In this document: in pieces, positions 24,593-61,859 of the stretch
Layout: every line of letters starts with the position of its first letter
Position numbering within the stretch: the first letter of the stretch is position 1
Assembly (NCBI GenBank): GCA_963717315.1
Contig: CAVQWA010000056.1
Span: 5,960-69,959, forward strand
Origin: an uncultured Gemmatimonadales bacterium
GTDB taxonomy: Bacteria > Gemmatimonadota > Gemmatimonadetes > Gemmatimonadales > GWC2-71-9
Reading direction: 5' to 3'
Length of the DNA stretch: 64,000 bases
The notes under the pieces: model-generated
Databases searched by the model: none
What the model was told of the DNA's origin: nothing
Seen by the model: the letters and a program-made list of their open reading frames with translations, nothing else
Made by a program: the position numbers and the translations under genes

Positions 24593-24657
24593 GCGGACAG
24601 TCGGGCAGTCGGACGGTCGCACAGCTTCACAACCGCCCGACTGTCCGACCGTCCGAC
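24592..24657. repeat. inverted octamer (GTCGGACR / YGTCCGAC) repeat hairpin between convergent genes
   Basis: ggcggacagtcgggcagtcggacggtcgcac ... ccgcccgactgtccgaccgtccgac. cggacagtcgggc pairs with gcccgactgtccg. Spans exactly from stop 24592 to stop 24657. Confidence 0.9.
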
Positions 24658-25226: not shown

Positions 25227-25334
25227 GGGGAGAGGGGAGAGGGGAGAGGAGAGAGGGGAGAGGGGAGAGGCAAGCCGTGAGCGGTGAGCGGGAGGGGTGC
25301 CTCCCCGACTGTCCGTCTGTCCGACTGTCCGCCT
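25227..25334. repeat. intergenic region built mainly of three repeat families
   Basis: (GGGGAGA)x6 at 25227..25268, (GTGAGCG)x2, the small palindrome gggagg-ggtg-cctccc, then (CCGACTGT)-type octamers x3.5 up to the dtd stop. Confidence 0.9.
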
Positions 25335-27717: not shown

Positions 27718-27787
27718 GTCGAAGGTCAAAGGTCGAAGGCCGAAGGGCGAAGGGCGAAGGCCGAAGGGCGAAGGGCGAGGGTCAGGC
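27718..27787. repeat. (GNCGAAG)n heptamer array, 9 units plus 1 degenerate
   Basis: gtcgaag gtcaaag gtcgaag gccgaag ggcgaag ggcgaag gccgaag ggcgaag ggcgagg gtcaggc. Fills the gap between the ogt stop and the next start. Confidence 0.92.
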
Positions 27788-28318
27788 GGGCAGTTCCCTC
27801 TCCCCTCTCCCCTCTCCCCTCTCCCCGAACAGGTCCAGCCTCTCGTGATCGAGCAGCCACCGCTTCCGCTCGATGCCGCCGCCGAAGCCGGTGAGCGACC
27901 CGTCGGCGCCGATCACCCGGTGGCAGGGCACGATGATCGGGAGGGGATTCCGGCCGTTCGCGGCGCCCACCGCGCGCACCGCATCCGGCGACCCGATCCG
28001 GCGCGCGAGCTCGGCATAACTGACCGTCTCCCCGAAGCGGAGTCGGCGGAGTCCCTCCCACACCCGGAGCTGGAACGCGGTGCCCGCCGGTGCGAGCGGC
28101 AGGTCGAAGGTGCGCAGGCTCCCGGCGAAGTACGCACCGAGCTGCTCGCGCGCCGCCGCCAGCACCAGCGATGCCTTCCCCGACCGCCCGCGGTCGCGAT
28201 CCCACCCGGCGCCGATCCGGCCCTCGTGCGGCGCGAACCAGACCGAGGTGAGCCCCCCGTCCTCGGCACTCGTGAGCAGCGGCCCGACCGGGCTCGGGAT
28301 CACGTCGTACACGATCAT
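27782..28318 (-). CDS. ogt: methylated-DNA--protein-cysteine methyltransferase
   Basis: ATG 28318 (MIVYDVIPSPVGPLL). Active site IIVPCHRVIG. The HTH region ETVSYAELARRIG. About 15 C-terminal residues are repeat-encoded. Confidence 0.9.
   Translation of the reverse strand: MIVYDVIPSPVGPLLTSAEDGGLTSVWFAPHEGRIGAGWDRDRGRSGKASLVLAAAREQLGAYFAGSLRTFDLPLAPAGTAFQLRVWEGLRRLRFGETVSYAELARRIGSPDAVRAVGAANGRNPLPIIVPCHRVIGADGSLTGFGGGIERKRWLLDHERLDLFGERGEGRGERELPA
27796..27826. repeat. (CCCTCTC)n heptamer array, about 4 units, inside the 3' end of the ogt ORF
   Basis: ccctctcccctctcccctctcccctctcccc. Encodes the GERGEGRGE tail of the ogt ORF. Confidence 0.92.
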
Positions 28319-34386: not shown

Positions 34387-35769
34387 TCAGCTCGGCGCGC
34401 CGAGCAGCGCGCGGGTCTCCTGGATCAGCGCCTCCGCCTCCCCGGCGGTGGGCGCCTCGGCGATGAGCCGGACGATCGGCTCCGTCCCCGAGGGACGGAG
34501 GTGCAGCCACCGGTCCGCCCAGCCGAGGCGGAGCCCGTCCCGTTCATCCACCTCGGCGTCCGGGTGCCGGGCCCGGAGCGCCGCAGAGGCCGCCCCCAGG
34601 TCGGACCGGGGCGCCTTGGCCTTCACGATGCAATACCGCGGGGCGGCCTGCACGAGCTCCGACACCCGCCGGCCGGTGCTGGCCAGGAGGGTCAGGAGCA
34701 GTGCCGCCGCCAGCGGGGCGTCCCGGCCGATGTGGAGGGCCGGGAGGATGACCCCGCCGTTCCCCTCGCCGCCGATGACGGCCCCCTCGTCCCGCATCAT
34801 CCGGGCCACGTTGGCCTCCCCGACGGGCGCCCGGAGGTACCGCGCCCCCGCCTCCCGGGCGGCGTCGGCGACGACGAGGGAGGTGGAGAGGTTGGCGACG
34901 ACGGTCGGACGGTCGGACTGTCCGACTGCCCGACTGCCCGACTGTCCCAGCACCGCCCTCACCGCGAACGCCAGCGTGTAGTCCTCCCCGATCGGCTGGC
35001 CGGTCTCGTCCACGATGGCCAGGCGGTCCACGTCGGGGTCCACGGCGATTCCCACGTCGGCGCCGGCCGCGCGCACGAGACGCCCGAGGTCGCCGAGATG
35101 TTCCGGGAGCGGTTCCGGCGGGCGGGGGAAGCGGCCGTCGGTCTCGAGGTTGATGCCTGCCACCCGGCAGCCGAGCCGCTCGAGCAGCGCCGGCATCGTC
35201 GTCCCGCCGGCGCCGCGGACGCAATCGAGCGCCACGGTGAAGTGCCTCGCGCGCACGGTGGCCGCATCCACCTCCGGCAGCGCGAGCACCAGGTCGAGGT
35301 GCCGGGCGATCGCTCCGGCGTCGTCCTCCAACGCGCCGATCCCGTCCCACCCCGCGCGGGCGGGCCCCTCCTCCGCCAGCGCGCGCACCCGGGCGCCCGC
35401 CTCCGCGTCGAGGAAGATCCCGTCCGGGCCCACGAACTTGAGCGCGTTCCACTCGATCGGGTTGTGGCTCGCGGTGAGGATGAGGCCCGCCCCGGCGTGG
35501 TGGTGCTCCACCGCGAGCTGTACCGTGGGCGTGGGGGCGACGCCCACGTCGATCACCCGCGCGCCCACCGACATCAGCCCCGCGGCCGCCGCGCGCGCGA
35601 ACATCGGGCCGCTGGTGCGCGCGTCCCGCCCCAGCACCACCGCCGGCCGGCCGTTCGCCGCGGCCCAGGCGCCGAGCGCGGCGGCATGCCGGGCCACCCG
35701 CTCCGGCGTCAGGTCGGTCCCGACCAGTCCCCGCATCCCGGAGACGCTGATCATCAGGGTGTCGGACAT
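34387..35769 (-). CDS. glmM: phosphoglucosamine/phosphohexose mutase (GlmM-type)
   Basis: ATG 35769 (MSDTLMISVSGMRG). Active-site TASHNPIEWNALK. Metal site DPDVDR. GGEGNGG. This is only the C-terminal third of the 1377-aa ORF in the track. Confidence 0.9.
   Translation of the reverse strand: MSDTLMISVSGMRGLVGTDLTPERVARHAAALGAWAAANGRPAVVLGRDARTSGPMFARAAAAGLMSVGARVIDVGVAPTPTVQLAVEHHHAGAGLILTASHNPIEWNALKFVGPDGIFLDAEAGARVRALAEEGPARAGWDGIGALEDDAGAIARHLDLVLALPEVDAATVRARHFTVALDCVRGAGGTTMPALLERLGCRVAGINLETDGRFPRPPEPLPEHLGDLGRLVRAAGADVGIAVDPDVDRLAIVDETGQPIGEDYTLAFAVRAVLGQSGSRAVGQSDRPTVVANLSTSLVVADAAREAGARYLRAPVGEANVARMMRDEGAVIGGEGNGGVILPALHIGRDAPLAAALLLTLLASTGRRVSELVQAAPRYCIVKAKAPRSDLGAASAALRARHPDAEVDERDGLRLGWADRWLHLRPSGTEPIVRLIAEAPTAGEAEALIQETRALLGAPS
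34899..34948. repeat. octamer palindrome embedded in frame inside glmM
   Basis: gacggtcggacggtcggac-t-gtccgactgcccgactgcccgactgtccc. Translated on the coding strand as ...GQSGSRAVGQSDRP... Confidence 0.9.
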
Positions 35770-38130: not shown

Positions 38131-38205
38131 GTCGAACGGTCGGACAGGAACCGCCCGACCGCCGACTGTCCGACTGTCGGACTGTTCGACCGCCGTACTG
38201 TCGCA
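38122..38205. repeat. nested inverted octamer (GTCGGAC/GTCCGAC) repeats
   Basis: gtcgaacggtcggacagg...ccgactgtccgac-t-gtcggactgttcgac. Central perfect palindrome gtccgac-t-gtcggac. Starts within the stop region of the upstream gene. Confidence 0.88.
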
Positions 38206-38266
38206 ACTTGAAACACCCCGGGCGGCTCTACCGTAAGGGGGCCAGCCCTCACCCGGAGTCCCGGCC

Positions 38267-39286: not shown

Positions 39287-41490
39287 GGATCCTGGTCGTC
39301 GGCGGCGGCGGCCGCGAGCACGCGCTCTGCTGGGCGGCGCGCCGCGAGCATCCCGAGGCCGAGCTCTGGTGCGCGCCGGGGAACCCCGGCACCGCCGCCG
39401 TCGCGACCAACCTCCCCGTCGCGGCCGACGATCTCGGCGGGATCGTCGCGGCCGCGCGGGAGCACACCACCCACCTCGTCATCGTCGGCCCCGAGGCGCC
39501 GCTGGCACTGGGCCTCGCCGACCGGCTCCGCGCCGAGCGTTGCCCCGTGTTCGGGCCCTCCGCCGCCGCCGCGCGGCTCGAGGCCTCCAAGGCGTTCGCC
39601 AAGGAGGTGATGGCGCACGCCGGGGTGCCCACCGCCGCGAGCCGCACCTTCACCGACGGCACGGCGGCGCTGGCGTACGTGGCGGCGCACGCGGAGCCGC
39701 TCGTGGTGAAGGCGTCGGGCCTCGCCGCCGGGAAGGGCGCGATCGTCTGCGCCACGCGGGCCGAGGCCGAGGCTGCGGTGCGTGCGATGCTGGTGGAGGG
39801 AAAGTTCGGCGAGGCGGGGCGCACCGTGGTGGTGGAGGAGTTCCTCCGGGGCGAGGAGCTCTCGGTGCTCGCCATCACCGACGGGGAGGAGGTGGTGCTC
39901 CTCCCGCCGTCGCAGGACCACAAGCGGCTGGGCGAGGGCGACACCGGCCCGAACACCGGCGGGATGGGCGCCTACAGCCCCGTGGCCATCGCCACCCCCG
40001 CGCTCCTCGGCCGCGCCATCTCCACGGTGATCAAGCCCACGCTCGCGGCACTCCGCGACCTCGGCGCCCCGTTCAGCGGGCTCCTCTACGCCGGGCTGAT
40101 GGTGGAGGAGGACGGCACGATCAACGTGGTGGAGTTCAACTGCCGCTTCGGCGACCCCGAGGCGCAGGTGGTGCTGCCGCTGGTGCGGGAGGGGTTCACG
40201 GACTGCCTCCTCGCGGTGGCGGAGGGGAGGTCACCCACCCCGTTGAGGCTGAGCCGGGACGCCGCGGTCACCACCGTGCTCGCCGCGCGGGGCTATCCCG
40301 ACGCACCGGAAAAGGGTGCCGCCATCACCATCCCCACGGACCTCCCCGCCGGCGTGACCGTCTTCCACGCCGGCACCAATCGTGACGCCGACGGCACCCT
40401 CCGGGTGAATGGCGGCCGGGTCCTCAACGTCACCGCCGTGGCGCCGACGTTCGAGGCGGCGCAGTTCCTCAGCCGCGACGCCGCCGACCGCATCGCGTTC
40501 GAGGGGAAGACCTGGCGGCGGGACGTGGGGTGGCGGGAGGCCGAGCGGCGGACGGGCGGGAAGGCGGCGGGAGCGGCGGGTTGCGCCCTCCTGCAACTCG
40601 CCGTCCCGCCCTCCCGCCGCCTATTCTTCCCCCGTGCCCGAGCTCCCCGAAGTCGAGACCATCGTCCGCGACATCCGGCCCCGCCTGGTGGGCCGGACCA
40701 TCACGCGGGCTTCCCTCTCCCACGACGACGTCCTCCGCGGGGTCACGAAGCGGAGGCTCCTCGCCGCCCTCGCGGGCGCGCGGATCGTGGCGGTCGAGCG
40801 CCGGGCCAAGCACGCCGTCCTCACCCTGCTCCCCTCTCCCCTCTCCCCTCTCCCCTCTCCCCGACTCGTCATCCAGCCCGGCATGTCCGGCTCCCTCATC
40901 GTCCACGACGCGCCCCTCCGGCGGGCCCAGGCCGCGTACGCCGTCCTCCGCGCCCCGCTCGACGACGGCGCCGAGCTGGTCTACCGCGACGTGCGCCGGC
41001 TCGGCACCCTGCTCCTCCTCGACACCGGGGGCTGGGCCGCGTACGACGCCGCCATCGGGCCGGAGCCGCTGGCCCCCGACTGGACGCCGGAGGCTCTCCT
41101 TCGCACCTTGAAAGGAAGTCGGCAGGCGGTGAAGAAGGTGCTGATGGACCAGCGGAAGGTCGCGGGAGTGGGGAACATCTACGCCAACGAGGCGCTCTGG
41201 GCCGCACGGGTGGACCCGTCCCGCCCCGCCTGCCGGGTCACCCCCGCGGAGGCGGAGGCGCTGCACGGCCACGTGCGCCGGATCCTCGCCGCCGCCATCC
41301 ACTCCAAGGGCACCACGCTCCGCGACTATCGCACCGGCACCGGCGGGCGGGGCAGCTTCCAGCTCGAGCTCTTCGTCTACGGGCGGGAGGGAGAGCCCTG
41401 CCGCGCCTGCGGCACGCGGCTCGCCGGCACCCACGCCATCGACGCGCGCATCACCGTCTTCTGCCACCGCTGCCAGGCCTGAACGAGTGA
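39283..41490 (+). CDS. purD: phosphoribosylamine--glycine ligase PurD; homology ends near 40560 but the frame has no stop until 41490
   Basis: GTG overlaps the M48 stop (GTGA). MRILVVGGGGREHALCW...full ATP-grasp...FEGKTWRRDVGWREAER matches the usual PurD C-terminus. The frame then runs through a hairpin repeat and across mutM out of frame. Confidence 0.85.
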   Translation: MRILVVGGGGREHALCWAARREHPEAELWCAPGNPGTAAVATNLPVAADDLGGIVAAAREHTTHLVIVGPEAPLALGLADRLRAERCPVFGPSAAAARLEASKAFAKEVMAHAGVPTAASRTFTDGTAALAYVAAHAEPLVVKASGLAAGKGAIVCATRAEAEAAVRAMLVEGKFGEAGRTVVVEEFLRGEELSVLAITDGEEVVLLPPSQDHKRLGEGDTGPNTGGMGAYSPVAIATPALLGRAISTVIKPTLAALRDLGAPFSGLLYAGLMVEEDGTINVVEFNCRFGDPEAQVVLPLVREGFTDCLLAVAEGRSPTPLRLSRDAAVTTVLAARGYPDAPEKGAAITIPTDLPAGVTVFHAGTNRDADGTLRVNGGRVLNVTAVAPTFEAAQFLSRDAADRIAFEGKTWRRDVGWREAERRTGGKAAGAAGCALLQLAVPPSRRLFFPRARAPRSRDHRPRHPAPPGGPDHHAGFPLPRRRPPRGHEAEAPRRPRGRADRGGRAPGQARRPHPAPLSPLPSPLSPTRHPARHVRLPHRPRRAPPAGPGRVRRPPRPARRRRRAGLPRRAPARHPAPPRHRGLGRVRRRHRAGAAGPRLDAGGSPSHLERKSAGGEEGADGPAEGRGSGEHLRQRGALGRTGGPVPPRLPGHPRGGGGAARPRAPDPRRRHPLQGHHAPRLSHRHRRAGQLPARALRLRAGGRALPRLRHAARRHPRHRRAHHRLLPPLPGLNE
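40563..40621. repeat. GC-rich inverted repeat at the expected purD end
   Basis: ggcggcgggag (40563..40573) is the exact reverse complement of ctcccgccgcc (40611..40621). Flanked by GGGA/GGCG-type short repeats. Confidence 0.75.
40634..41482 (+). CDS. mutM: formamidopyrimidine-DNA glycosylase
   Basis: GTG 40634 gives (M)PELPEVETIVRDI. RRAKH...GMSGSL. H2TH KVLMDQRKVAGVGNIYANEALW. C-terminal zinc finger CRACGTRL...FCHRCQ. Confidence 0.88.
   Translation: MPELPEVETIVRDIRPRLVGRTITRASLSHDDVLRGVTKRRLLAALAGARIVAVERRAKHAVLTLLPSPLSPLPSPRLVIQPGMSGSLIVHDAPLRRAQAAYAVLRAPLDDGAELVYRDVRRLGTLLLLDTGGWAAYDAAIGPEPLAPDWTPEALLRTLKGSRQAVKKVLMDQRKVAGVGNIYANEALWAARVDPSRPACRVTPAEAEALHGHVRRILAAAIHSKGTTLRDYRTGTGGRGSFQLELFVYGREGEPCRACGTRLAGTHAIDARITVFCHRCQA
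40831..40862. repeat. (CCCCTCT)x4 heptamer array embedded in frame inside mutM
   Basis: cccctctcccctctcccctctcccctctcccc. Encodes LPSPLSPLPSP between RRAKHAVLTL and RLVIQPGMSGSL. Confidence 0.9.
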
Positions 41491-42566
41491 CCGCGGTCCT
41501 CCCCTTCGCCGCCGCCGACCACGAGGTGCTGCTCGAGCGGGTGAAGCGGCTGGCGGAGAACCGGCCGGGGACCTATCGCATGACCGACGAGGCGGGCCGG
41601 CTGCTCTACGTCGGCAAGGCCAAGCGGCTCCGCACCCGGCTCCTCACCTATTTCCGCGCCGCTCCCGAGGACAAGGCCGCCCGGATCCTCCAGGCGGCGC
41701 GGAACGTCGCCTGGGAATACGCGCCGAGCGAGTTCGCCGCGGGGCTCGCCGAGCTGCGGCTCATCCGCCGCCACCGGCCGCCGTACAACGTGCAGTACAA
41801 CCGGAACCGGCGGCTCGCCTTCGTCCGGGTCACCGCGGAGGCCGCCCCGCGGGTCCTCGTGGCGGCGGCGCCGGGCGAGAGCGGCCGGAGCTACGGGCCG
41901 TTCGCCGCGCCCTCGCGCGTGACCGAGGCGGTGCGGGTGCTCGGCGACCTGCTCGGCCTCCGGGACTGCGGCGCGAAGATGCCGGTGGTCTTCGCCGCGC
42001 AGGAGGACCTCTTCACGGCGCCGGCGCTGGCCGCCTGTCCCCGGCACGCCTTCGGCACCTGCGCCGGGCCGTGCGCCGGGCTGGTGGCGCAGGCCGCATA
42101 CGCGGCGCGGGTCGAGGCGGCCGCCGCCTTCCTCGAGGGCCGCGCCGTCCGGCCGATCGACCGCGCGGTGGCCGAGATGGCCCGCGCCGCCGGCCAGGAG
42201 GAATTCGAACTCGCGCTGAGGTGGCGCGAGCGCTACGAGGCGCTCGAGTGGCTGCTCGCCACGGTGGCCCGCGCGCGCGCCGCGCGGGACCTCCTCACGT
42301 TCGTCTACCGCGACACCGGGGCCCACGGCGACGACCGGGCCTACCTCGTCCGCGGCGGCGAGGTGCGCGCCGCCTTCCCCTGGCCCGGCACCCCGATCGA
42401 GGCGGAGGCGTTCCGCGCCGTCGTCCGGGAGGAGCTCGCCCGGCCGATGGACCCGACCGGCCCGCTCCCCCTCGACCGGGCGGACGAGATCCTGCTGGTG
42501 ATGAGCTGGTTCCGCCGGCACCCGGAGGCCCTTCGCCGGACAACGCCGCTCGCGGAATGGACCTAG
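41487..42566 (+). CDS. UvrC-like GIY-YIG nuclease domain protein (Cho-like)
   Basis: GIY-YIG module GTYRMTDEAGRLLYVGKAKRLRTRLLTYF...EFAAGLAELRLIRRHRPPYN. Shorter than full UvrC. Confidence 0.8.
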   Translation: MTAVLPFAAADHEVLLERVKRLAENRPGTYRMTDEAGRLLYVGKAKRLRTRLLTYFRAAPEDKAARILQAARNVAWEYAPSEFAAGLAELRLIRRHRPPYNVQYNRNRRLAFVRVTAEAAPRVLVAAAPGESGRSYGPFAAPSRVTEAVRVLGDLLGLRDCGAKMPVVFAAQEDLFTAPALAACPRHAFGTCAGPCAGLVAQAAYAARVEAAAAFLEGRAVRPIDRAVAEMARAAGQEEFELALRWRERYEALEWLLATVARARAARDLLTFVYRDTGAHGDDRAYLVRGGEVRAAFPWPGTPIEAEAFRAVVREELARPMDPTGPLPLDRADEILLVMSWFRRHPEALRRTTPLAEWT

Positions 42567-42586
42567 AGAGGGGAGAGGGGAGAGGG
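42567..42586. repeat. (GGGGAGA)x~2.7 directly after the stop at 42566
   Basis: agaggggagaggggagaggg. Confidence 0.85.
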
Positions 42587-42604
42587 CCCCCCCACCACAC
42601 CCCC

Positions 42605-42775
42605 CCGACTCTCCGACTGTCCGACCGTCCGACCGTCCGACCGTCCGACTGTCCGACCGTCCGACCGTCCGACCGTCCGACCGTCCGACTGTCCGACCGT
42701 CCGACCGTCCGACCGTCCGACCGTCCGACCGTCCGACTGTCCGACCGTCCGACCGTCCGACTGTCCGACTCCGAC
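42605..42775. repeat. 21-unit phased octamer array (CCGACYGT) plus one truncated unit
   Basis: CCGAC recurs every 8 bp from 42605 to 42765 (21 units). The spacer alternates CGT/TGT. A final out-of-phase CCGAC lies at 42771. Confidence 0.95.
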
Positions 42776-42859
42776 CCTGAAACTTCCCCCGTCACCCGGC
42801 CGTGAGCCCCCCGTCGCCTCCTTCGAGGTGCCGATGCGCCGCTCGCCCTGCTGGCCGCC

Positions 42860-43306
42860 GTGGCGGCCGCCATTCACGCCGCCCCCGCCGCCGCGCAGTC
42901 CGCGCCGGCCGCGCGGGACGACCCGCTCAACGTCGGCCGGAAGGGCGTGCAGTGGGTCCACGATCAACCGCTCGACAGCCTGTGGAATCGCATCGACGAG
43001 CGGATGCAGGGCGCGCTGGGGTCGAAGGACGGGCTGCAGCAGCAGATCGACCGGATCGGCATCACCTTCGGGGCCGAGGTCGAGGTGGTCGAGGAAACGG
43101 TGGGCGCGAAGGACGGGAACCTGGTCCAGGCCCGCGAGGTCAAGTTCGAGGACGGACGGCTGAGCCGCCTCACTCCTCCCCCGCCGGCAGCAGCGGCATC
43201 AGCCGCCCGCGGGGGGGGATGCCCGGCTCGAGCTCGAGAATGCCGACGGAGGGCGGGAGCCCATCCTTCGTCTTCCTGCCCGCCGCCCCGGGGTTCATCA
43301 CGGTGA
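42860..43306 (+). CDS. hypothetical small (possibly secreted) protein
   Basis: Coding-like codon usage through ...DDPLNVGRKGVQWVHDQPLDSLWNRIDERMQGALGSKDGLQQQIDRIGITFGAEVEVVEE... An upstream in-frame RRLLRGADAPLALLAAVAAAIHAAPAAAQ looks like a signal peptide but has no canonical start. The 3' third overlaps the convergent gene and is probably not real. Confidence 0.4.
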   Translation: MAAAIHAAPAAAQSAPAARDDPLNVGRKGVQWVHDQPLDSLWNRIDERMQGALGSKDGLQQQIDRIGITFGAEVEVVEETVGAKDGNLVQAREVKFEDGRLSRLTPPPPAAAASAARGGGCPARARECRRRAGAHPSSSCPPPRGSSR

Positions 43307-45374: not shown

Positions 45375-45489
45375 GGGGGAAAAGTAGCCCGCCGGGAGCG
45401 GGGGGAAGGCGCGGCCTTCACGCCGGTTTCATTCCTTTTCGGGACGGAACGGGTAGGTTGGGGGGACACCCAACCCGGAGCCGCCCCCG

Positions 45490-46017
45490 ATGGCCGACCG
45501 CGATCACATCGTCGCCGCGATCCGTGCGAGCGGGAACTTCCAGTCCGAGGTGCGCTACATCGCGCGCGGGGGCTATGTCGTGGCCGATTCACCCCGGCTC
45601 TTCAAGCACCTCGAGAACGGCCTGGTCCGCGTCGTCTTCCCCACCACCGCCACGGAGATGAATGACGGCACCGTCGTGGCGATGGTCTGCCTCTGGGACT
45701 CGAACGAGGGGTACAACATCTACGCGCACACCATCTGCGCCGGCGGCGGGGTGAACATCCTGCTCCGGACGATGGACCACCCGATGCCGCAGGCCCTGCC
45801 CCAGCCGCTGCCCGAGGGGCCCCGCGCCATCCGGAAGTTCGTGGCCTGGAAGGAAGCCTCCTGGGTGAAGTTCCTGAACGACGAGCTCGCGGTCGGCAAC
45901 GCCCGCGCCTCGCGGCTCTGGATCGCGTGCTTCTGGAAGGCGCTGGACCGGATGTTCGGCGGCGGGAACCTGCTGGGCTTCGATCCCGAGGCGGAGATGC
46001 GGGCGGCGGAAGGCTGA
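45490..46017 (+). CDS. hypothetical protein
   Basis: ATG preceded by ggag. Coding-like composition. No family recognised. Opposite strand to the surrounding quinone genes. Confidence 0.65.
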   Translation: MADRDHIVAAIRASGNFQSEVRYIARGGYVVADSPRLFKHLENGLVRVVFPTTATEMNDGTVVAMVCLWDSNEGYNIYAHTICAGGGVNILLRTMDHPMPQALPQPLPEGPRAIRKFVAWKEASWVKFLNDELAVGNARASRLWIACFWKALDRMFGGGNLLGFDPEAEMRAAEG

Positions 46018-46086
46018 GGGGGGAGGGGAGAGGGGAGAGGGGGAGCGGCCCTCTCCCCTCTCCCCTCTCCCCTCTCCCCTCTCCCC
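46016..46086. repeat. G-arm/C-arm (GGGGAGA/TCTCCCC) hairpin between convergent stops
   Basis: 46016..46041 pairs with 46049..46074. Hand count: 25 Watson-Crick pairs plus one G-T, 7-nt loop. The C-arm extends to 46086. Confidence 0.95.
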
Positions 46087-46088
46087 GC

Positions 46089-47879
46089 CTACCACCTCCC
46101 CCGGGCCCGCCGCTCCAGCCGGTCCCCGAAGTACTCCCCCCACCGCCGCTCGACCAGTTTCTGGACCTCGTCCGGGACCGTCACCGGCGGGGGGTAGCCT
46201 TCCTTCCAGGTGGCGTCGATCCCGATCCGGCCGCGGTAGACCGGCCGCGCGCCGACGAACGACCGCTCCTGGAAGATCATGTCGCGCGCCGGGTCGAACC
46301 GGGTGAAGATCCCCCAGATGGTGCTGGTGTCGTCGGCCAGGTCCACGTCCCCGCTCACCGCCACGACGAACCGCACCGGGCCCAGGCCATCCCACTGCAC
46401 CAGCCGCTCCAGCACCTCGCGCGGGTCCTGCTCCACCTCGACCACCAGCCACCCCTCGATCAGCGCGTGCCGCCGGATCCGGCGGTCGAAGGCCGACGGG
46501 TCGTTCACCTCGTCCGGCGGGGGCGCAGTGGTGATCGCCTCGCCGGTGGCGTCGAGCACCAGCTTCGAGCCCACGTGGAGCCGGAACGAGGTGTAGTCGA
46601 GGGTGTCGAGCGGCGCGATCGGCAGGAGCAGCATCCGCTCCTCCGGCTCGAACCGGTGCCACAGCTCGCGAAGCACCGCGCGCAAGCTCCGCACCGGCAC
46701 CTCCTCGCGGACCATCACCGCCACCTTGGTGAGCGAGAGCTGGCCGGTGCCAAGGAGGTTGAACGCGGTCTTGAGGACCTCCCCGGGGTGCCGTTCGCGG
46801 AGCGACACCGCGAGAAGGTTGTGGAACACCGCGTCGTCGAAGGCGAAGAGGTCGGTGATGTTCGGGTTCACCACCTTGATGAGCGGCCCGATGATCTCCC
46901 CCGCCGCGATCCCGACCCACTTGTCCTCCTGCGGCGGCTTCCCCACCACCGCCGCGGGAATGACCGGGAGCCGGCGCCGCGTCACCGCCTTCACGTGGAA
47001 CACCGGGAACAGCTCGGCCTCGGAGTAGTGCCCGAAGTGGTCGCCGAAGGGGCCCTCGAGCCGGCGCTCGTGCGGCGGCACCACGCCCTCGAGGATCATC
47101 TCCGCGTTGGCGGGCACGAGAAGTCTCGTGGCGCGGCCGGGCGCCAGGCGGGTGGCCTTGCCGCGCACGTAGCCGGCGAAGGCCAGCTCGTCGAAGTCCT
47201 CCGGCAGCGGGAAGATGGCGGAGAGCATCGTGACCGGGTCGCCGCCCAGCACCACCGCCGCCTCGAGCGGCTCGTTCCGCCTCTCCGCCTCGAAGTGGTG
47301 CCCCCGTCCCCCCTTCATCGACTGCCAGTGCATCCCGGTGGTGGCGGCATCGAACACCTGCAGCCGGTAGAGCCCGAAGTTCCGCCGCCCCGTGCCGGGC
47401 GCCTCGGTGAGGGTCGGCCCCCAGGTGATGAACGGCCCGCCGTCCCGCGGCCAGGCGTGCAGGTTCGGCATCCGGTCGAGGGCGGGCGCCTCCACGACCT
47501 CCTGCGCCACGCCGCCCGACACCCGGCGCGGCGGCATGTGCCGGGCCCGGAGGAGCTGCGACCGCGCGCCCCAGAACGCCTTGAGCGTGGGCGGGTTGAG
47601 CCGCTGGATCAGCCCGAGCAGCTCCTCGCCGATCGCCTGCGGATGGCGGCCGAGCGCCAGCTCGATCCGGCGATGCGACCCGAACAGGTTGAGCACCGCC
47701 GGGAAGTCGGCGCCCCTCACCCGCTCGAAGAGCAGCGCCGGCCCGTCCTGGCGGATCACCCGCTGGACGATCTCCGCCATCTCGAGGTACGGGTCCACCT
47801 CCGCGGTGACGCGGAGCAGCTCGCCCTCGCGCTCGAGGGCGGCGATGAAGGACTGGAGATCGGCGAACGGGTAGGTCAT
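46089..47879 (-). CDS. ubiD: UbiD-family (prFMN-dependent) decarboxylase
   Basis: ATG 47879 (MTYPFADLQSFIAALEREGELLRV). Full-length UbiD similarity (NLFGS, GPFITWG, GMHWQ.MKGG, and others). Confidence 0.92.
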   Translation of the reverse strand: MTYPFADLQSFIAALEREGELLRVTAEVDPYLEMAEIVQRVIRQDGPALLFERVRGADFPAVLNLFGSHRRIELALGRHPQAIGEELLGLIQRLNPPTLKAFWGARSQLLRARHMPPRRVSGGVAQEVVEAPALDRMPNLHAWPRDGGPFITWGPTLTEAPGTGRRNFGLYRLQVFDAATTGMHWQSMKGGRGHHFEAERRNEPLEAAVVLGGDPVTMLSAIFPLPEDFDELAFAGYVRGKATRLAPGRATRLLVPANAEMILEGVVPPHERRLEGPFGDHFGHYSEAELFPVFHVKAVTRRRLPVIPAAVVGKPPQEDKWVGIAAGEIIGPLIKVVNPNITDLFAFDDAVFHNLLAVSLRERHPGEVLKTAFNLLGTGQLSLTKVAVMVREEVPVRSLRAVLRELWHRFEPEERMLLLPIAPLDTLDYTSFRLHVGSKLVLDATGEAITTAPPPDEVNDPSAFDRRIRRHALIEGWLVVEVEQDPREVLERLVQWDGLGPVRFVVAVSGDVDLADDTSTIWGIFTRFDPARDMIFQERSFVGARPVYRGRIGIDATWKEGYPPPVTVPDEVQKLVERRWGEYFGDRLERRARGRW

Positions 47880-47884
47880 GCGAC

Positions 47885-47996
47885 AGGGGAGAGGGGAGAA
47901 GGGAGAGGGGAGACGGGAGATGGGGGGGAGGGCATCACGCGCTTGCGCCCACGGTGCGCGTGCCGACCTCTCCCCTCTCCCCTCTCCCCTCTCCCC
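47885..47996. repeat. split G-arm (x6) / C-arm (x4) heptamer inverted repeat between ubiE and ubiD
   Basis: aggggagaggggagaagggagaggggagacgggagatggggggg ...37 nt... cctctcccctctcccctctcccctctcccc. The C-arm lies inside the ubiE ORF tail. Confidence 0.9.
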
Positions 47997-48717
47997 GCTC
48001 CGCGACGTGCAGCGCCGTCGCCCCACCGAGCAGGAGCTCGTGCTCCGCGGCCCGGAAGCCGCACTGCCGGAGCAGGTCGTCCAGCGCCGCGGGCTCGGGG
48101 AAGTGACGGGCCGACTCTGGAAGCCAGGAGTAGGCGTCCGTATGTTTCGAGAAGAACCGGCCCACGCGCGGCAGCACGCGCTCGAAGTAGAGATTGTAGA
48201 GCCCGCGAAGCGGCTGGCGCGGGGGATGGCAGGTGTCCAGCAGGACGAGCCGCGCGCCCGGCTTGAGCACCCGCGCCACCTCGCGCAGCCCGGCCTCGAG
48301 GTCCATCAGGTTCCGGAGCCCCCACCCCACCATCGCGCCGTCGAAGGTGGCGTCGGGAAACGGCAGCTGGAGCGCGTCGGCGGTCACCGGCTGCAGTCCC
48401 GGCGCCTTGCCGCGCCCGAGCCGGAGCATCGGCAGGACGAAGTCGGCGGCGGTGATCTTCCCGCGGAACCCGGGCTGACGGGCCAGGGCGGCCGAGAAAT
48501 CGAGCGTGCCGGCGCAGAGGTCGAGGTAGTGACCGTCGGGACGGCGCTCCCATCCGAGCCGCCGCACCGCCACCTTCCGCCAGTGAATGTCCAGGCGGAA
48601 GCTGATGATGCGGTTGAGGCGGTCGTAGCTCGGGGCGATGGCGGTGAACATCCCCCGCACATAGGCCCGCTTCTCCGCTCCGCCCGCAACGGGCAACTGT
48701 CCACCGGAGGCCGACAT
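47935..48717 (-). CDS. ubiE: demethylmenaquinone/ubiquinone C-methyltransferase (UbiE/MenG)
   Basis: FTAIAPSYDRLNRIISF...YLDLCAGT SAM motif...LRNLMD. The final AERGEGRGERGEVGTRTVGASA is repeat-derived. Confidence 0.9.
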   Translation of the reverse strand: MSASGGQLPVAGGAEKRAYVRGMFTAIAPSYDRLNRIISFRLDIHWRKVAVRRLGWERRPDGHYLDLCAGTLDFSAALARQPGFRGKITAADFVLPMLRLGRGKAPGLQPVTADALQLPFPDATFDGAMVGWGLRNLMDLEAGLREVARVLKPGARLVLLDTCHPPRQPLRGLYNLYFERVLPRVGRFFSKHTDAYSWLPESARHFPEPAALDDLLRQCGFRAAEHELLLGGATALHVAERGEGRGERGEVGTRTVGASA

Positions 48718-56196: not shown

Positions 56197-56280
56197 CGGG
56201 ACGGGGAACGGGGAGAGGGGAGAGGGGAGAGGGGAGCGGGGAGGGGGCCCTCTCCCCTCTCCCCTCTCCCCTCTCCCCCC
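56197..56280. repeat. G-arm/C-arm heptamer hairpin filling the whole intergenic gap
   Basis: 56210..56236 pairs with 56252..56278 (27 pairs by hand count). Three further GC pairs follow after one mismatch. Spans exactly from start codon 56196 to stop codon 56281. Confidence 0.95.
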
Positions 56281-57408
56281 TCACCCGCTCACCACCGGCA
56301 GCGTCGTCTCCAGCCCCGCCACCTCCTCCACCACCCGCTGGGCGATGTCGCGGAGGGCGGTGGCCGCCGGGCTCCCCGGCTGGGAGAGGACGATCGGGCG
56401 GCCGAGGTCGGCGTCGTCAGGGAGGCCGGGCTGGAGCGGGATCTTGCCGAGGAGCGGGATGCCAAGCTCCTCCGCCAGCCGCTGGCCGCCGCCGGTGAGG
56501 AAGATGTCGGAGTGCTGGCCGCAGTGGGTGCAGGTGAAGCCGCTCATGTTCTCCACCACGCCGGCCACGGGCACGCCGACCTTCTCGAACATCTTCGCCC
56601 CGCGGAGCGCGTCGCCGATCGCCACCACCTGCGGCGTCGTCACGATGATCGCGGCCGTGACCTTCGTGGTCTGCGCCAGCGAGAGCTGCGCGTCGCCGGT
56701 GCCGGGAGGCATGTCCACGATCAGGTAGTCGAGTTCGCCCCACGCGACGTCGTGCAGGAACTGGTGGATCACCTTCATGATGATCGGCCCGCGCCAGATG
56801 ACCGGCGCGTCGCGCTCGAGCAGGAACCCGAGCGACATCAGCTTCACCCCGTACGCCTCCAGCGGGACGATCCGGTTGCCGTCCCGCATCGGACGCTCGA
56901 AGACGCCCATCATCCTCGGCACGTTGGGGCCGTAGACGTCGGCGTCCATCATCCCCACCCGGTGCCCCGCCTCCGCGAGCGCCACCGCCAGGTTCACCGC
57001 CACCGTGGACTTCCCCACCCCGCCCTTCCCCGACGACACCGCGATGATCCGCCCGAGGTGCGGCAGCTCCATCCCCGCCGGAGCCGTCCCGGCCGCTCCA
57101 GCGGTCGCAGGCGCCCCCGCCCCCGCCCCCGCCCCCGGCGGCCCGTGCGTCGCCGGCGCCGGGCCCGCGGGATCGGTCACCCGGATCCGCGCCGGCGGCT
57201 CGACGCCCGTCACCCCCTCCACCGCCTTCCGCACCTGGCGCACCAGCGTCGCCGGGTCATCGCGGCCGAGGAGGAAGGTGAAGGAGACCTCGCCGGCGTC
57301 GGACACCGACAGGTCGCGCACCAGGCCGGCCGTGAGGACGTCGCCCTTCGCGGGATGCGCCACGCCGCGGAGCGCGGCGAGGACGCGGGAGTGGAGCGTA
57401 TCGGTCAT
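56281..57408 (-). CDS. apbC: Mrp/ApbC-family Fe-S cluster carrier ATPase
   Basis: ATG 57408 (MTDTLHSRVLAAL). N-terminal DUF59-like domain. Gly/Ala/Pro linker. Deviant Walker A SGKGGVGKST. CTHCG motif. Confidence 0.92.
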   Translation of the reverse strand: MTDTLHSRVLAALRGVAHPAKGDVLTAGLVRDLSVSDAGEVSFTFLLGRDDPATLVRQVRKAVEGVTGVEPPARIRVTDPAGPAPATHGPPGAGAGAGAPATAGAAGTAPAGMELPHLGRIIAVSSGKGGVGKSTVAVNLAVALAEAGHRVGMMDADVYGPNVPRMMGVFERPMRDGNRIVPLEAYGVKLMSLGFLLERDAPVIWRGPIIMKVIHQFLHDVAWGELDYLIVDMPPGTGDAQLSLAQTTKVTAAIIVTTPQVVAIGDALRGAKMFEKVGVPVAGVVENMSGFTCTHCGQHSDIFLTGGGQRLAEELGIPLLGKIPLQPGLPDDADLGRPIVLSQPGSPAATALRDIAQRVVEEVAGLETTLPVVSG

Positions 57409-60686: not shown

Positions 60687-60771
60687 GGGGGAGAGGGGAG
60701 AGGGGAGAGGGCCGAGCGGCCGTCGCGCGTCTCCCGTCTCCCCTCTCCCCTCTCCCCTCTCCCCTCTCCCC
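60687..60771. repeat. G-arm/C-arm heptamer inverted repeat
   Basis: 60688..60711 pairs with 60741..60764 (24 Watson-Crick pairs by hand count), with a 29-nt loop. The C-arm ends at the stop of CDS 60771..61859. Confidence 0.93.
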
Positions 60772-61859
60772 TACTCGACCACTTCGGCGAGCTCGACGAC
60801 GGGATTGGGCAGCCACCGCGTGCTCGCCGCGCGCAGGATGACGCGCCCCGTGAACTCGGAGAGCGGCGCCATCCCCTTGAACCGTGCCGCCTGCGGCGGG
60901 GAGACGATCACGTACACGTACCCCGGCTCCGGCAGCGGGCCGCGGGCGAGGAGGTACTCCCGACCCTCCGGCAGCTCGGGGCGGAGCGCGTCGGCGGTCT
61001 GCACCGCCACCAGCTGCAGGCGCCACTCGATGAGCTGCCCGGTGTAGCGGTCCGGCTGTGCCCGCACCTCCGAGGTGGAGACGCCGCGGAGCGCGCCGCC
61101 CGGCGCCGGCCGCGCGTCGCCCGCCGGGAGCCAGCCCTCGATCCGCACCTTCACCCACTCGCCGGAACGCGCGATGACCTCGCCCTCCGCCCCGTCGGCC
61201 AGCGTGGCGATCCCCGCGCCGCCCGGCTCCGCGGCGAGGAGCGCGTTGGTGGCGGTGGCGACGCGGTCGCTCGACGGGGCGACGGGGCCCGCAGGCGGCG
61301 CGGCGGCTCCGCCGCCTGGCGGCGGGACGGAGGGTTGCGGGGACGGCGCGCGGACGGCGTCCCCCGACGCGCCGTCCCGCCGCCCCGCCGTCCGCTCCGC
61401 GAACGCCGACCGGAGCGCCCACCCCTCCCGCCGCACCCGGACCCATCGCCCCTGCGTCGTGCGCCGGTCGAGCAGCGCGCCCCGCGAGAGCTTCGCCACC
61501 ATCGCCCCGTTCGGCGCGGCGCGGAGGTTCTCCCCGCCGTCGGCGCTCACCACCAGGTCGAAGCCGTCGCGCGTGGTGCGCGCCACGCTCGGCGCGTAGA
61601 TCCAGCCGTCGAGCGTCACCTCCACCCAGCCGCCCCGGGTGCGCCCGGTGGGCACCCGCGCGCCGGGCTGGAGCATCCCGAGCTGCGTCCCGCCGGGCTC
61701 CTTCCGGAACGCGGTGGCGCGCCGCACCGCCTGCGCATCCTGCGCGGCGAGCGGGCCCGCGAGGAGCGCGAGCGCCGCGGCGATCGAGGCTGTCAGGCGG
61801 GAGGGGACCGGGATAGATTGCGGCTCCAGTCTCACGATCCCGAATCGTAGGAGCCGCAC
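60771..61859 (-). CDS. secreted protein with bacterial SH3-like repeats
   Basis: Signal ...LTASIAAALALLAGPLAAQ. Repeated GGWVEVTLDGWI / GRWVRVRREGWA / GEWVKVRIEGWL SH3b-like motifs. Start GTG 61859, or more likely GTG 61832. Confidence 0.8.
   Translation of the reverse strand: MRLLRFGIVRLEPQSIPVPSRLTASIAAALALLAGPLAAQDAQAVRRATAFRKEPGGTQLGMLQPGARVPTGRTRGGWVEVTLDGWIYAPSVARTTRDGFDLVVSADGGENLRAAPNGAMVAKLSRGALLDRRTTQGRWVRVRREGWALRSAFAERTAGRRDGASGDAVRAPSPQPSVPPPGGGAAAPPAGPVAPSSDRVATATNALLAAEPGGAGIATLADGAEGEVIARSGEWVKVRIEGWLPAGDARPAPGGALRGVSTSEVRAQPDRYTGQLIEWRLQLVAVQTADALRPELPEGREYLLARGPLPEPGYVYVIVSPPQAARFKGMAPLSEFTGRVILRAASTRWLPNPVVELAEVVE

What the first reader, a model, noticed from the sequence alone, without database searches (positions are those of the whole stretch)
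46016..46086. Near-perfect 26-position G-arm/C-arm hairpin exactly between two convergent stop codons
Positions 46016..46041 pair with 46049..46074. By hand count that is 25 Watson-Crick pairs, one G-T and a 7-nt loop. The structure starts inside the TGA at 46015..46017 and ends 3 nt before the ubiD stop complement at 46089. It would form in both transcripts. It is a candidate bidirectional terminator or RNA-stability element with no U-tract. The G-rich arm could alternatively fold as a quadruplex.
Basis: seen in the sequence. Interest (0 to 1): 0.6.

Follow-up and report, generated by a model that had tools for sequence, protein, structure and literature searches.

The report
Hairpin built from inverted heptamer microsatellites
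The hairpin is real, but it is two back-to-back seven-base microsatellites, (GGGGAGA)n then (TCTCCCC)n, and is one of dozens of such arrays sitting after gene ends in this Gemmatimonadales genome; it is a local example of a known but functionally unexplained repeat class rather than a one-off terminator.

Summary
Observation confirmed exactly: 46016-46041 pairs with 46049-46074 through 25 Watson-Crick pairs and 1 G-T, with a 7-nt loop. It lies between the TGA of a conserved 175-aa gene and the TAG of a UbiD-family gene. It ties with one sister hairpin as the strongest fold in the window.

They belong to a family: about 37 arrays of 7-8 nt make up 22% of the non-coding DNA. Every adjacent pair reads G-rich arm, then C-rich arm. 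Arrays occur in 20 of 28 spacers that contain a gene 3' end and in 0 of 7 divergent spacers.

At the same site, close relatives carry the same architecture with other units (GGTGAGC/GCTCACC; GGGGAGC). Copy number differs between samples (5 vs 7 units). A more distant relative has an unrelated, non-repeat hairpin there.

Best reading: a microsatellite-built, REP-like 3'-end hairpin that acts as a partial, factor-assisted attenuator and exonuclease barrier in both directions. It is not a canonical intrinsic terminator: it has no U-tract, and sister copies lie inside operons and coding regions. The closest known kind is the G-rich heptamer repeats of Xanthomonas and Nostoc. Function is inferred, not shown.

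The parts
45490..46017 (+). Conserved 175-aa hypothetical gene with no Pfam or NCBIfam family. Its TGA stop (46015-46017) overlaps the first base of the G arm.
   Evidence: ORF list. GC3 is 0.94. 161 homologs, mostly in Gemmatimonadota. It sits divergent from ubiA in the window and in L083, L092 and L093. No family hit.
46016..46042 (+). G arm: tandem heptamer array (GAGGGGA/GGGGAGA) x3.9. It is homopurine and has four G runs of 4 or more.
   Evidence: TRF, own scan, sequence, G4-aware fold.
46043..46048 (.). Loop and spacer between the arms (GAGCGG).
46049..46086 (+). C arm: tandem heptamer array (CCCTCTC/TCTCCCC) x5.4, 100% matches. The roughly 12-nt surplus forms a pyrimidine-only tail 3' of the stem in the + strand transcript.
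   Evidence: TRF.
46089..47879 (-). UbiD-family decarboxylase of the menaquinone-biosynthesis type, 596 aa. TAG stop at 46089-46091, ATG at 47879.
   Evidence: Pfam UbiD_N/UbiD/UbiD_C. TIGR03701 scores 479 bits against a cut-off of 495.9. Translation.
47882..48001 (.). Sister hairpin at the ubiE-ubiD junction: G array 47882-47924 and C array 47967-48001. On the mRNA (- strand), the G-rich arm encodes the last residues of UbiE and the C-rich arm ends 2 nt before the ubiD ATG.
56198..56293 (.). Sister hairpin (GGGGAGA)x5.4 / (CCCTCTC)x5. It fills the whole 84-nt spacer between the mrp/apbC stop (56281) and the SAM-hydroxide-adenosyltransferase start (56196).
60688..60772 (.). Sister hairpin (GGGGAGA)x3.4 / (TCTCCCC)x6.7 between two co-directional - strand genes.
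25227..25331 (.). dtd-maf spacer made entirely of three arrays: GGGGAGA x6.3, AGCGGTG x4 and CCGACTGT x3.4. They abut the maf start and the dtd stop.
42566..42770 (.). (GAGAGGG)x3 overlapping a stop codon, followed by (TCCGACCG)x21, the longest array in the window. It lies upstream of a TGAAAC promoter-like motif at 42778.

Best explanation
The element is an inverted pair of heptanucleotide microsatellite arrays, (GGGGAGA)~4 followed by (TCTCCCC)~5.5, that fills the 71-nt spacer between two convergent stop codons.

It is one member of a family of 7-8-nt tandem arrays, dense throughout this 64-kb window. Their rule is: stop codon, then G-rich array(s), then C-rich array(s), then the next start codon or a convergent stop.

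Shown here: the arrays are real, abundant and tied to gene 3' ends. The two arms are usually complementary. The unit changes in concert on both arms between close relatives. Unit number varies between samples.

Inferred: slipped-strand expansion builds and resizes the arms. In RNA the 26-30-bp stem forms in both convergent transcripts and acts like an E. coli REP element. That is, it works as a context-dependent, partial, factor-assisted (Rho/NusA/NusG) pause or attenuator and as a barrier to 3'-to-5' exonucleases. This would define and protect both mRNA 3' ends and limit antisense read-through.

The constant G-first/C-second order places a pyrimidine-only RNA 3' arm and tail in the RNA:DNA hybrid. 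By established thermodynamics this is the weakest hybrid type available in a 74% GC genome with no U-tracts.
For: Structure: 25 WC + 1 GT; -86/-90 kcal/mol; z about -5.7; strongest fold in the window.

SSR nature and family: TRF; 33 arrays of 7-8 nt by my scan; 37 once TRF-only arrays are added; GGGGAGAGGGG 39 times against 0.32 expected; 37 arrays, 2.45% of the window, 1189 of 5312 non-coding bases.

Position: arrays occur in 20 of 28 spacers of at least 40 nt that contain a gene 3' end, and in 0 of 7 divergent spacers (Fisher p = 0.001). At 38131-38266 and 42567-42833 the arrays lie between the upstream stop and a TGAAAC motif 56-58 nt before the next start, which is the terminator slot.

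Orientation: all 15 adjacent array pairs are G-rich first, then C-rich (p = 3e-5).

Complementarity: about 10 of those 15 pairs have complementary units (my tally; one search gives p = 1e-4 against an assumed 20% chance rate).

Orthologous site: L091 (89% identical neighbour protein) has TGA-(GGTGAGC)4-loop-(GCTCACC)7. L083-L090 (88%) have TGA-(GGGGAGC)5-7 plus a degenerate C arm. L002 (UbiD 76% identical) has an unrelated perfect 16-bp non-repeat hairpin in the same convergent spacer. So structure is kept while sequence is replaced.

Canonical hairpin-plus-U terminators are absent: 2 found against 3.6 expected by chance.

Functional analogy: REPs act as partly Rho-dependent terminators and as mRNA stabilisers, and REPs between convergent genes correlate with higher expression of both genes (bioRxiv 10.64898/2026.03.23.713779). 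The G-rich heptamer repeats of Xanthomonas show the same positional rules, and transcripts more often start or end at them (PMC4692102).
Against: No transcript data exist, so termination and stabilisation are wholly inferred.

There is no U-tract, and the hybrid after the stem is C-rich, so unaided intrinsic termination is improbable.

Sister hairpins fill intra-operon spacers and abut start codons (47882-48001, 56198-56293, 25227-25331). Others lie in frame inside mutM and glmM. A strong terminator would be harmful in those places. This fits tolerated microsatellite spread as well as it fits function.

In relatives L005 and L014, arrays also occur in a divergent spacer.

The gene map used for the spacer statistics is a crude GC3-based call that I corrected by hand.
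Confidence: 0.5

Rival explanations
1. Neutral or selfish microsatellite growth. Replication slippage, possibly favoured for 7-8-nt units, seeds and expands arrays wherever they are tolerated. The hairpin is a by-product of inverted duplication and has no role in gene expression. The positional bias only reflects purifying selection against arrays in promoters and out-of-frame in genes.
For: Arrays occur in frame inside mutM (an 8-aa insertion relative to three orthologs) and inside glmM. They form the C-terminal tails of UbiE and Ogt. Copy number differs between samples (5 vs 7 units, L083 vs L089). The first unit differs between two assemblies of the same strain (L001 vs window). Arm lengths are unequal (3.9 vs 5.4 units). 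Units are lineage-specific and absent from relatives at 70% identity. No function was found for the Xanthomonas/Nostoc repeats either (PMC4692102).
Against: The arms are complementary far more often than random juxtaposition of the window's unit types would give. All 15 pairs have the same G-then-C order. At the orthologous site the architecture persists through three different units, and a non-repeat hairpin occupies the same spacer in L002. Together these suggest the stem itself is maintained.
Confidence: 0.3
2. Stand-alone bidirectional intrinsic terminator. The long GC stem alone releases RNA polymerase in both directions without a U-tract or any factor.
For: It lies exactly between convergent stops and folds very stably in both transcripts. 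Canonical terminators are lacking in this genome region. The + strand transcript has a 12-nt pyrimidine tail after the stem.
Against: There is no U-tract. The stem, at 26-30 bp, is far longer than terminator stems. Identical hairpins sit inside apparent operons with no room for a promoter before the next start codon and inside coding sequence. From established knowledge, hairpins without U-tracts did not terminate mycobacterial RNA polymerase in vitro (Czyz et al. 2014, recalled, not checked here).
Confidence: 0.1
3. Non-B nucleic-acid element. The G arm folds as a G-quadruplex, the C arm as an i-motif, or each homopurine-homopyrimidine mirror-repeat arm as H-DNA. Any of these could act on replication, transcription or translation, possibly as a hairpin/G4 switch.
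For: There are four G4-6 runs with 1-3-nt loops on the + strand and five or six on the - strand. The predicted G4 energy of the isolated arm is -35 kcal/mol. A near-identical HSV-1 repeat, GGGGGAGAGGGGAGAGGGGGGGAGAGGGG, is listed among in-vitro G4-forming sequences (PMC5137459). G-rich heptamer repeats of Xanthomonas/Nostoc form G4 in vitro and favour four units (PMC4692102); the G arm here has 3.9 units.
Against: With the complementary arm 6 nt away, the hairpin is predicted to be about 50 kcal/mol more stable. Many sister arrays in the same positions (CCGACTGT, TCGCGAG, CGGTGCC) cannot form G4, so G4 cannot explain the family.
Confidence: 0.07
4. Recognition site or product of a trans-acting system. 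This would be a REP/RAYT-like mobile palindrome, or a binding array for an RNA- or DNA-binding protein, with the lineage-specific unit set by that protein.
For: The dominant unit differs between close genomes but is shared by many loci within a genome: GGGGAGA in the window and GGGGAGC in L083/L084. In relatives, hairpin loops carry insertions: a 110-nt indel between L083 and L084, and a 3.2-kb, 4-gene segment between same-orientation arrays. This recalls insertion sequences that target REP loops.
Against: There are no fixed element ends, no terminal inverted repeats and no target duplications. Arm lengths vary in whole units. No transposase was noticed next to any copy, although I did not scan all the window's proteins. 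Several unrelated units coexist.
Confidence: 0.03

Closest known systems
G-rich heptameric simple sequence repeats of Xanthomonas (GGGAATC) and Nostoc (GGGGAYT), Rehm et al. 2015 (PMC4692102)
   Same: Both are head-to-tail 7-nt G-rich units with about four units preferred. Both are over-represented in non-coding DNA. Both lie within 0-50 bp of, or overlap, the stop codon with the G-rich strand on the coding strand, and within 0-50 bp upstream of ORFs on the non-coding strand. Both are under-represented between divergent ORFs. Both often occur as convergent (inverted) pairs able to form stem-loops (70-75 pairs per Xanthomonas genome). Unit number varies between relatives while position is kept. 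Function is unknown in both.
   Different: The phylum differs (Gemmatimonadota) and so does the unit (GGGGAGA). Several unrelated 7- and 8-nt units coexist here. Density is roughly 7-15 times higher: 0.25-0.55 arrays per kb here against about 0.04 per kb for Xcc, which I computed from 186 repeats (PMC4692102) and a genome size of about 5.1 Mb recalled from memory. Here inverted pairing and the G-then-C order are the rule, and arrays also enter coding regions in frame.
REP/BIME (REPIN) elements of E. coli and Pseudomonas
   Same: Both are abundant extragenic GC-rich hairpins in 3' UTRs, inside operons and between convergent genes. They are the best functional model: partial, partly Rho-dependent attenuation plus protection of upstream mRNA, and REPs between convergent genes associate with higher expression of both genes (bioRxiv 10.64898/2026.03.23.713779).
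   Different: REPs are fixed-length imperfect palindromes with a family consensus and are spread by RAYT transposases. This element is built from tandem microsatellite units, has variable arm lengths, and has no known mobilising enzyme.
Canonical Rho-independent (intrinsic) terminators, including bidirectional ones
   Same: Both are GC-rich stem-loops just downstream of stop codons, usable from both strands between convergent genes.
   Different: There is no U-tract or A-tract here. The stem is 26-30 bp rather than about 5-14 bp. The arms are repetitive and allow several registers.
Other intergenic heptamer repeats: cyanobacterial tandem heptanucleotides and Beggiatoaceae TAACTGA repeats (PMC4679880)
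   Same: Both are lineage-specific heptamer direct repeats concentrated in intergenic DNA, often within a few nucleotides of start codons. Binding of S1, Csp or CsrA-like proteins has been suggested for them.
   Different: Those are AT-rich or mixed units, nearly always direct rather than inverted, and are mostly upstream of genes.

Membership tests
Canonical intrinsic terminator | GC-rich stem-loop immediately downstream of a stop codon | tested here: met
Canonical intrinsic terminator | U-tract directly 3' of the stem (A-tract 5' for bidirectional use) | tested here: not met
   The tails are UCCCCUCUCCCC on the + strand and AGCCUUCCGCC on the - strand. The consensus scan did not report it, and found 2 sites against 3.6 expected in 20 kb.
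Canonical intrinsic terminator | Releases RNA polymerase without factors | not testable with these tools
   Needs in vitro transcription or Term-seq.
G-rich heptameric SSR (Rehm et al. 2015 type) | Head-to-tail G-rich 7-nt units, with four or more G-tracts | tested here: met
   TRF period 7, x3.9 and x5.4. G4-aware fold.
G-rich heptameric SSR (Rehm et al. 2015 type) | Genome-wide over-representation with bias to non-coding DNA | tested here: met
   39 hits against 0.32 expected. 22% of non-coding bases are arrays. Tested in one 64-kb window only.
G-rich heptameric SSR (Rehm et al. 2015 type) | Close to or overlapping stop codons on the coding strand; rare between divergent ORFs | tested here: met
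   Caveat: relatives L005 and L014 have arrays in one divergent spacer.
G-rich heptameric SSR (Rehm et al. 2015 type) | Occurs as inverted pairs; unit number varies between relatives | tested here: met
G-rich heptameric SSR (Rehm et al. 2015 type) | Unit sequence GGGNATC or GGGGAYT | tested here: not met
   The unit is GGGGAGA. It is the same kind of repeat with a different unit.
REP/BIME (REPIN) | Fixed-length imperfect palindrome with a conserved family consensus | tested here: not met
   Arms vary in whole 7-nt units (3.4-6.7). Loops and flanks are not conserved among the four GGGGAGA hairpins.
REP/BIME (REPIN) | Extragenic, at gene 3' ends, within operons or between convergent genes | tested here: met
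REP/BIME (REPIN) | Cognate RAYT transposase in the genome | not tested
   Only a 64-kb window was available, and its proteins were not all scanned.
MITE | Terminal inverted repeats flanked by target-site duplication; defined length | tested here: not met
   No unique termini or duplications. The element abuts the two stop codons directly.

The most novel reading that the evidence does not exclude
These Gemmatimonadales may have replaced conventional terminators and REPs with self-resizing microsatellite hairpins. Stem length would change in 7-bp steps by slippage, giving heritable and reversible tuning of 3'-end formation, antisense read-through and intercistronic expression. This would amount to phase-variable terminators or insulators. 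The units change in concert on both arms and across many loci between sister genomes (GGGGAGA, GGGGAGC, GGTGAGC), which would imply a trans-acting partner or an active spreading and homogenising mechanism, analogous to REP-RAYT but built from SSRs.
Probability: 0.12. Interest if true: 0.65.

Novelty: new member of a known kind. Interest (0 to 1): 0.4.

Why it matters
Transcript 3'-end formation in very GC-rich, uncultured phyla is essentially unknown, and canonical terminators are missing from this 20-kb neighbourhood. If these microsatellite hairpins mark or shape 3' ends, they would explain a class of repeats, the bacterial heptamer SSRs, whose function has stayed open since they were noticed in Xanthomonas and cyanobacteria. 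They would also give a simple way to annotate operon ends in such genomes.

There are practical consequences. Short-read assemblies break at these arrays: contig L001 ends inside this one. Arrays lengthen ORFs and insert residues into proteins (UbiE, Ogt, MutM, GlmM). In relatives they coincide with indels and gene insertions. They therefore matter for MAG quality, gene calling and genome plasticity.

Tried and rejected
- I queried genome contigs with ubiD coordinates off by one base, so the frame was wrong and nothing was found. One search repeated it correctly.
- a metagenome scan for alleles of this exact locus, using the 33-nt end of the 175-aa gene, gave 0 hits.
- a metagenome scan for the hairpin pattern (GGGGAGA)2.5-N0-30-(CCCCTCT)2.5 gave one unrelated, lower-GC contig (L082). 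It was uninformative. Short-read assemblies probably break at such arrays.
- exact-protein look-ups for UbiD (596 and 645 aa versions) and SAM-HAT, meant to find other assemblies spanning the hairpins, found nothing on record.
- the best long contig for a 68%-identical homolog had no DNA available.
- Rfam gathering thresholds and a tRNA/tmRNA scan gave no hits in the window.
- the canonical terminator/promoter consensus scan found nothing above chance.
- Considered and rejected: CRISPR (no spacers of constant length, two inverted arms only); MITE (no termini or target duplications); attenuator or riboswitch (the element lies between two stop codons, with no downstream ORF).
- A covariance-model approach was not used, because low-complexity arrays of variable length cannot be aligned meaningfully.

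Full report
**1. What is at the coordinates**

The window is 73.6% GC. Its closest public genomes are Gemmatimonadales MAGs; the UbiD protein is 76% identical to the best of them, L002.

At 46015-46017 a TGA ends a 175-aa ORF on the + strand (45490-46017, GC3 0.94). This ORF belongs to a conserved hypothetical family of about 175 aa with 161 detected homologs and no Pfam or NCBIfam model. At 46089-46091 the complement of a TAG ends a 596-aa UbiD-family decarboxylase of the menaquinone type (46089-47879, - strand). The two genes are therefore real and convergent, with 71 nt between their stops.

Pairing 46016+k with 46074-k gives 25 Watson-Crick pairs and one G-T, with no mismatch, around the loop GGAGCGG. 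Predicted RNA folding energy of 46000-46100 is -86.3 kcal/mol on the + strand and -90.5 on the - strand. Both have z about -5.7 against dinucleotide shuffles. In a 90-nt sliding fold of the whole window this is the most stable position (-83.9; window mean -37.8, sd 8.2). It ties with 56201-56290.

**2.

Tandem Repeats Finder reports 46016-46042 as a period-7 array (GAGGGGA, 3.9 copies) and 46049-46086 as a perfect period-7 array (CCCTCTC, 5.4 copies). Because the C arm is about 1.5 units longer, registers shifted by 7 or 14 nt pair equally well.

The 11-mer GGGGAGAGGGG occurs 39 times in the window, at 16 sites, against 0.32 expected. Counting all period-7 and period-8 arrays of about three or more units gives 37 arrays. 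They total 1566 nt, which is 2.45% of the window. Of these bases, 1189 lie in the 5312 non-coding bases, or 22% of non-coding DNA. The units include:
- GGGGAGA/TCTCCCC, the commonest
- GGGGAAC/GTTCCCC
- ACAGTCGG/CCGACTGT
- GGACGGCG
- TCGCGAG
- CGAAGGG
- CGGTGCC
- AGCGGTG

Three other loci carry the same GGGGAGA/TCTCCCC inverted pair: 47882-48001, 56198-56293 and 60688-60772. Several others carry inverted octamer pairs (24584-24658, 34899-47, 38155-38202, 55400-40).

**3. Positional rules**

I used a GC3-based gene map. I corrected it by hand for purD and for a small gene at 42834-43167 that it had missed. On this map, arrays occur in:
- 6 of 6 convergent spacers of at least 40 nt
- 14 of 22 co-directional spacers of at least 40 nt
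- 0 of 7 divergent spacers (Fisher p = 0.001)

All 15 adjacent array pairs read G-rich first and C-rich second. Because they are inverted repeats, this holds on either strand (p = 3e-5). In mRNA terms the order is always stop codon, G-rich array, C-rich array, then the next start or the convergent stop. By my tally, about 10 of those 15 pairs have complementary units. That is far more than random juxtaposition of the unit types would give (p about 1e-4 against an assumed 20% chance rate).

Where a downstream gene has its own promoter-like motif, the arrays lie between the upstream stop and that motif. The motif is TGAAAC, 56-58 nt before the start codon (38209, 42778 and 45426), and it is conserved in relatives. 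In several other co-directional spacers the arrays fill the spacer completely and abut the next start codon:
- ubiE-ubiD, where the C-rich arm ends 2 nt before the ATG
- mrp to SAM-hydroxide adenosyltransferase, and dtd to maf; Pfam confirms these genes are full length

Arrays also lie in frame inside coding sequence:
- (CCCTCTC)5.4 in mutM adds eight residues (LPSPLSPL) that are absent from three orthologs.
- A 48-nt inverted octamer pair sits inside glmM.
- Array sequence forms the C-terminal tails of UbiE and Ogt.

Canonical hairpin-plus-U-tract terminators are not found above chance: 2 against 3.6 expected in 20 kb.

**4. Comparative evidence at the same site**

L002 is the closest genome-collection relative and has the same convergent gene pair. 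Its 88-nt spacer shares no sequence with the window but contains a perfect 16-bp non-repeat hairpin, CGAAGGGCGGGAGCAC-CCG-GTGCTCCCGCCCTTCG. The spacer MFE is -70 to -74.5 kcal/mol, and there is no U-tract.

Two much closer relatives were recovered through homologs of the 175-aa protein.
- In L091 (89% identical protein), the stop is followed directly by (GGTGAGC)4, a C-rich loop, and (GCTCACC/GCTTACC)7. This is the same architecture, with a short G arm at the stop and a longer C arm, built from a different heptamer.
- In L083-L090 (88% identical, eight contigs from different samples), the stop is followed by (GGGGAGC)5 and a degenerate C arm. L089 has seven units instead of five, and L085 and L088 differ by one G in a run.

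In that second genome a 3.2-kb segment with four genes separates the 175-aa gene from ubiD. The ubiD stop is followed by its own G-arm/(GCTCCCC)3 hairpin, which abuts the next ATG. A neighbouring convergent spacer is filled by a clean (GGGGAGC)4/(GCTCCCC)n hairpin in L084. In L083 and L085 the arms of that hairpin are split by a 110-nt insert.

A second assembly of the window's own strain (L001, 99.7% identical over 1056 nt) ends inside the G arm and differs from the window only there in the last 100 nt.

Relatives at about 70% identity and 66% GC (L092, L093) have no arrays. Other Gemmatimonadales carry other units at lower density: GAGGACT right after ubiD in L004-L006 and L014, CACGAAAN inverted pairs, and GGGAACA x9. 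These are mostly just after stop codons, but once in a divergent spacer. GGGGAGAGGGG is absent from all of these Gemmatimonadales loci (L002-L006, L014).

In short, position and architecture persist, the unit is replaced with matching changes on both arms, and copy number is polymorphic.

**5. Mechanism**

Shown: the element is an inverted pair of SSR arrays from a dense family tied to gene 3' ends, with maintained arm complementarity and a fixed G-then-C polarity.

Inferred:
(a) Slipped-strand mispairing creates and resizes the arms. This is the established behaviour of SSRs. The over-representation of heptamers in large GC-rich genomes is discussed in PMC4692102.
(b) The RNA stem forms in both convergent transcripts.
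(c) It works like REP elements. A recent study shows these to be partly Rho-dependent attenuators and upstream-mRNA stabilisers, and finds that REPs between convergent genes associate with higher expression of both genes (bioRxiv 10.64898/2026.03.23.713779).

The G-then-C polarity makes the RNA 3' arm and tail pyrimidine-only. By established nucleic-acid thermodynamics, r(pyrimidine):d(purine) hybrids are the weakest for a given GC content. This would be the nearest substitute for a U-tract in a 74% GC genome. That last point is my inference.

I put about 0.95 on the structural identity and about 0.45-0.5 on the functional reading.

The main rival (0.3) is neutral microsatellite spread filtered by selection. 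It is favoured by the copies inside coding regions and inside operons. A stand-alone intrinsic terminator (0.1) is disfavoured by the missing U-tract and by those same copies. A G-quadruplex role (0.07) is possible kinetically: a near-identical HSV-1 repeat is listed among in-vitro G4-forming sequences (PMC5137459), and the isolated arm is predicted at -35 kcal/mol. However, the hairpin is predicted about 50 kcal/mol more stable, and most sister units cannot form G4. A REP-RAYT-like or protein-recognition system (0.03) is suggested only by the genome-specific units and by insertions in hairpin loops.

**6. Comparison with what is known**

The closest described kind is the G-rich heptameric SSRs of Xanthomonas (GGGAATC) and Nostoc (GGGGAYT) (PMC4692102). 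These show the same unit length, a preference for about four units, and a bias to non-coding DNA. They lie close to or overlap stop codons on the coding strand and are depleted between divergent ORFs. Xanthomonas has 70-75 inverted pairs per genome. Length varies between relatives while position is kept, and transcripts start or end at them more often. Their function is unknown.

The present case differs in phylum and in unit. Several 7- and 8-nt units coexist here. Density is roughly 7-15 times higher. Inverted pairing and the G-then-C order are near-universal. Arrays also enter coding regions.

It fails the defining tests for a canonical intrinsic terminator (no U-tract), for REP/BIME (no fixed palindrome) and for MITEs. 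No paper in the searchable library describes such repeats in Gemmatimonadota.

**7. Verdict**

The hairpin is real and highly non-random, but within its genome it is ordinary. It is a new member of a known and poorly understood repeat class. Interest is 0.4. This reflects a tidy, testable system: architecture conserved through unit turnover, with a strict polarity. It bears on the open question of what bacterial heptamer repeats do and how 3' ends are made in very GC-rich phyla. It is not a categorically new element.

Noticed in passing
window 40824-40862 (mutM, 40634-41482 +): A (CCCTCTC)x5.4 array lies in frame inside the formamidopyrimidine-DNA glycosylase gene. It adds eight residues (LPSPLSPL) absent from orthologs in L005, L006 and L014. 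Slippage by one 7-nt unit would frameshift this DNA-repair gene, so it could be a mutator contingency locus.
   Followed up: partly
window 34899-34947 (glmM-type phosphoglucosamine mutase, 34387-35769 -): A 48-nt inverted octamer pair (GACGGTCG.../...CCGACTGC) with no loop sits in frame inside the coding region, encoding GQSGSRAVGQSDRPTV.
   Followed up: partly
window 39290-41490 (+): The purD reading frame has no in-frame stop after its conserved C-terminus. It reads through the G/C hairpin at 40545-40620 and on to 41490, overlapping mutM in another frame. Either the stop was lost when the hairpin formed, or the assembly has an indel error in a G/C run.
   Followed up: no
window 47938-48000 and 27782-27826: The C-terminal tails of UbiE (…ERGEGRGERGEVGTRTVGASA) and of Ogt are encoded by array sequence. 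The arrays have extended the ORFs beyond the Pfam domains.
   Followed up: partly
window 38209, 42778 (+), 45426 (-), 49374 (+): TGAAAC occurs only five times in the window. Three occurrences are intergenic and lie 56-58 nt upstream of start codons (genes at 38267, 42834 and ubiA at 45374), and one lies 40 nt upstream of 49414. The motif and its position are conserved in L005, L006 and L014. It is probably a promoter element of this clade.
   Followed up: partly
window 42603-42770: This is the longest array in the window: the octamer TCCGACCG/TCCGACTG x21 (168 nt, 94% matches). It is preceded by (GAGAGGG)x3 overlapping the upstream stop codon. The orthologous spacers of L005 and L006 have no array.
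   Followed up: partly
L083 6743-6931 vs L084 6743-6820; L083 4529-7788: In the 88%-identical relative, one SSR hairpin in a convergent spacer carries a 110-nt insertion in its loop in two of three samples. A 3.2-kb, 4-gene segment lies between same-orientation (GGGGAGC)n arrays exactly where the window has its single hairpin. The arrays may act as insertion or recombination sites.
   Followed up: partly
L005 11787-11824; L004, L006, L014 same position: In four other Gemmatimonadales the spacer after ubiD holds (GAGGACT)n (5.4 copies in L005, about 3 degenerate copies elsewhere). It lies just upstream of a small conserved ORF and contains Shine-Dalgarno-like GAGGA.
   Followed up: no
window 45375-46017; L083, L092, L093: The 175-aa hypothetical gene is always divergently paired with ubiA (prenyltransferase). 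This suggests an uncharacterised role in prenylquinone biosynthesis. It matches no Pfam or NCBIfam model.
   Followed up: partly
L001 1044-1056 vs window 46019-46032: An independent short-read assembly of the same strain ends inside the G arm and reads GGGGGGAGAGGGGAG where the window reads GGGGGGAGGGGAGAG. This is either unit-level polymorphism or an assembly-tip error. Short-read contigs break at these arrays.
   Followed up: partly
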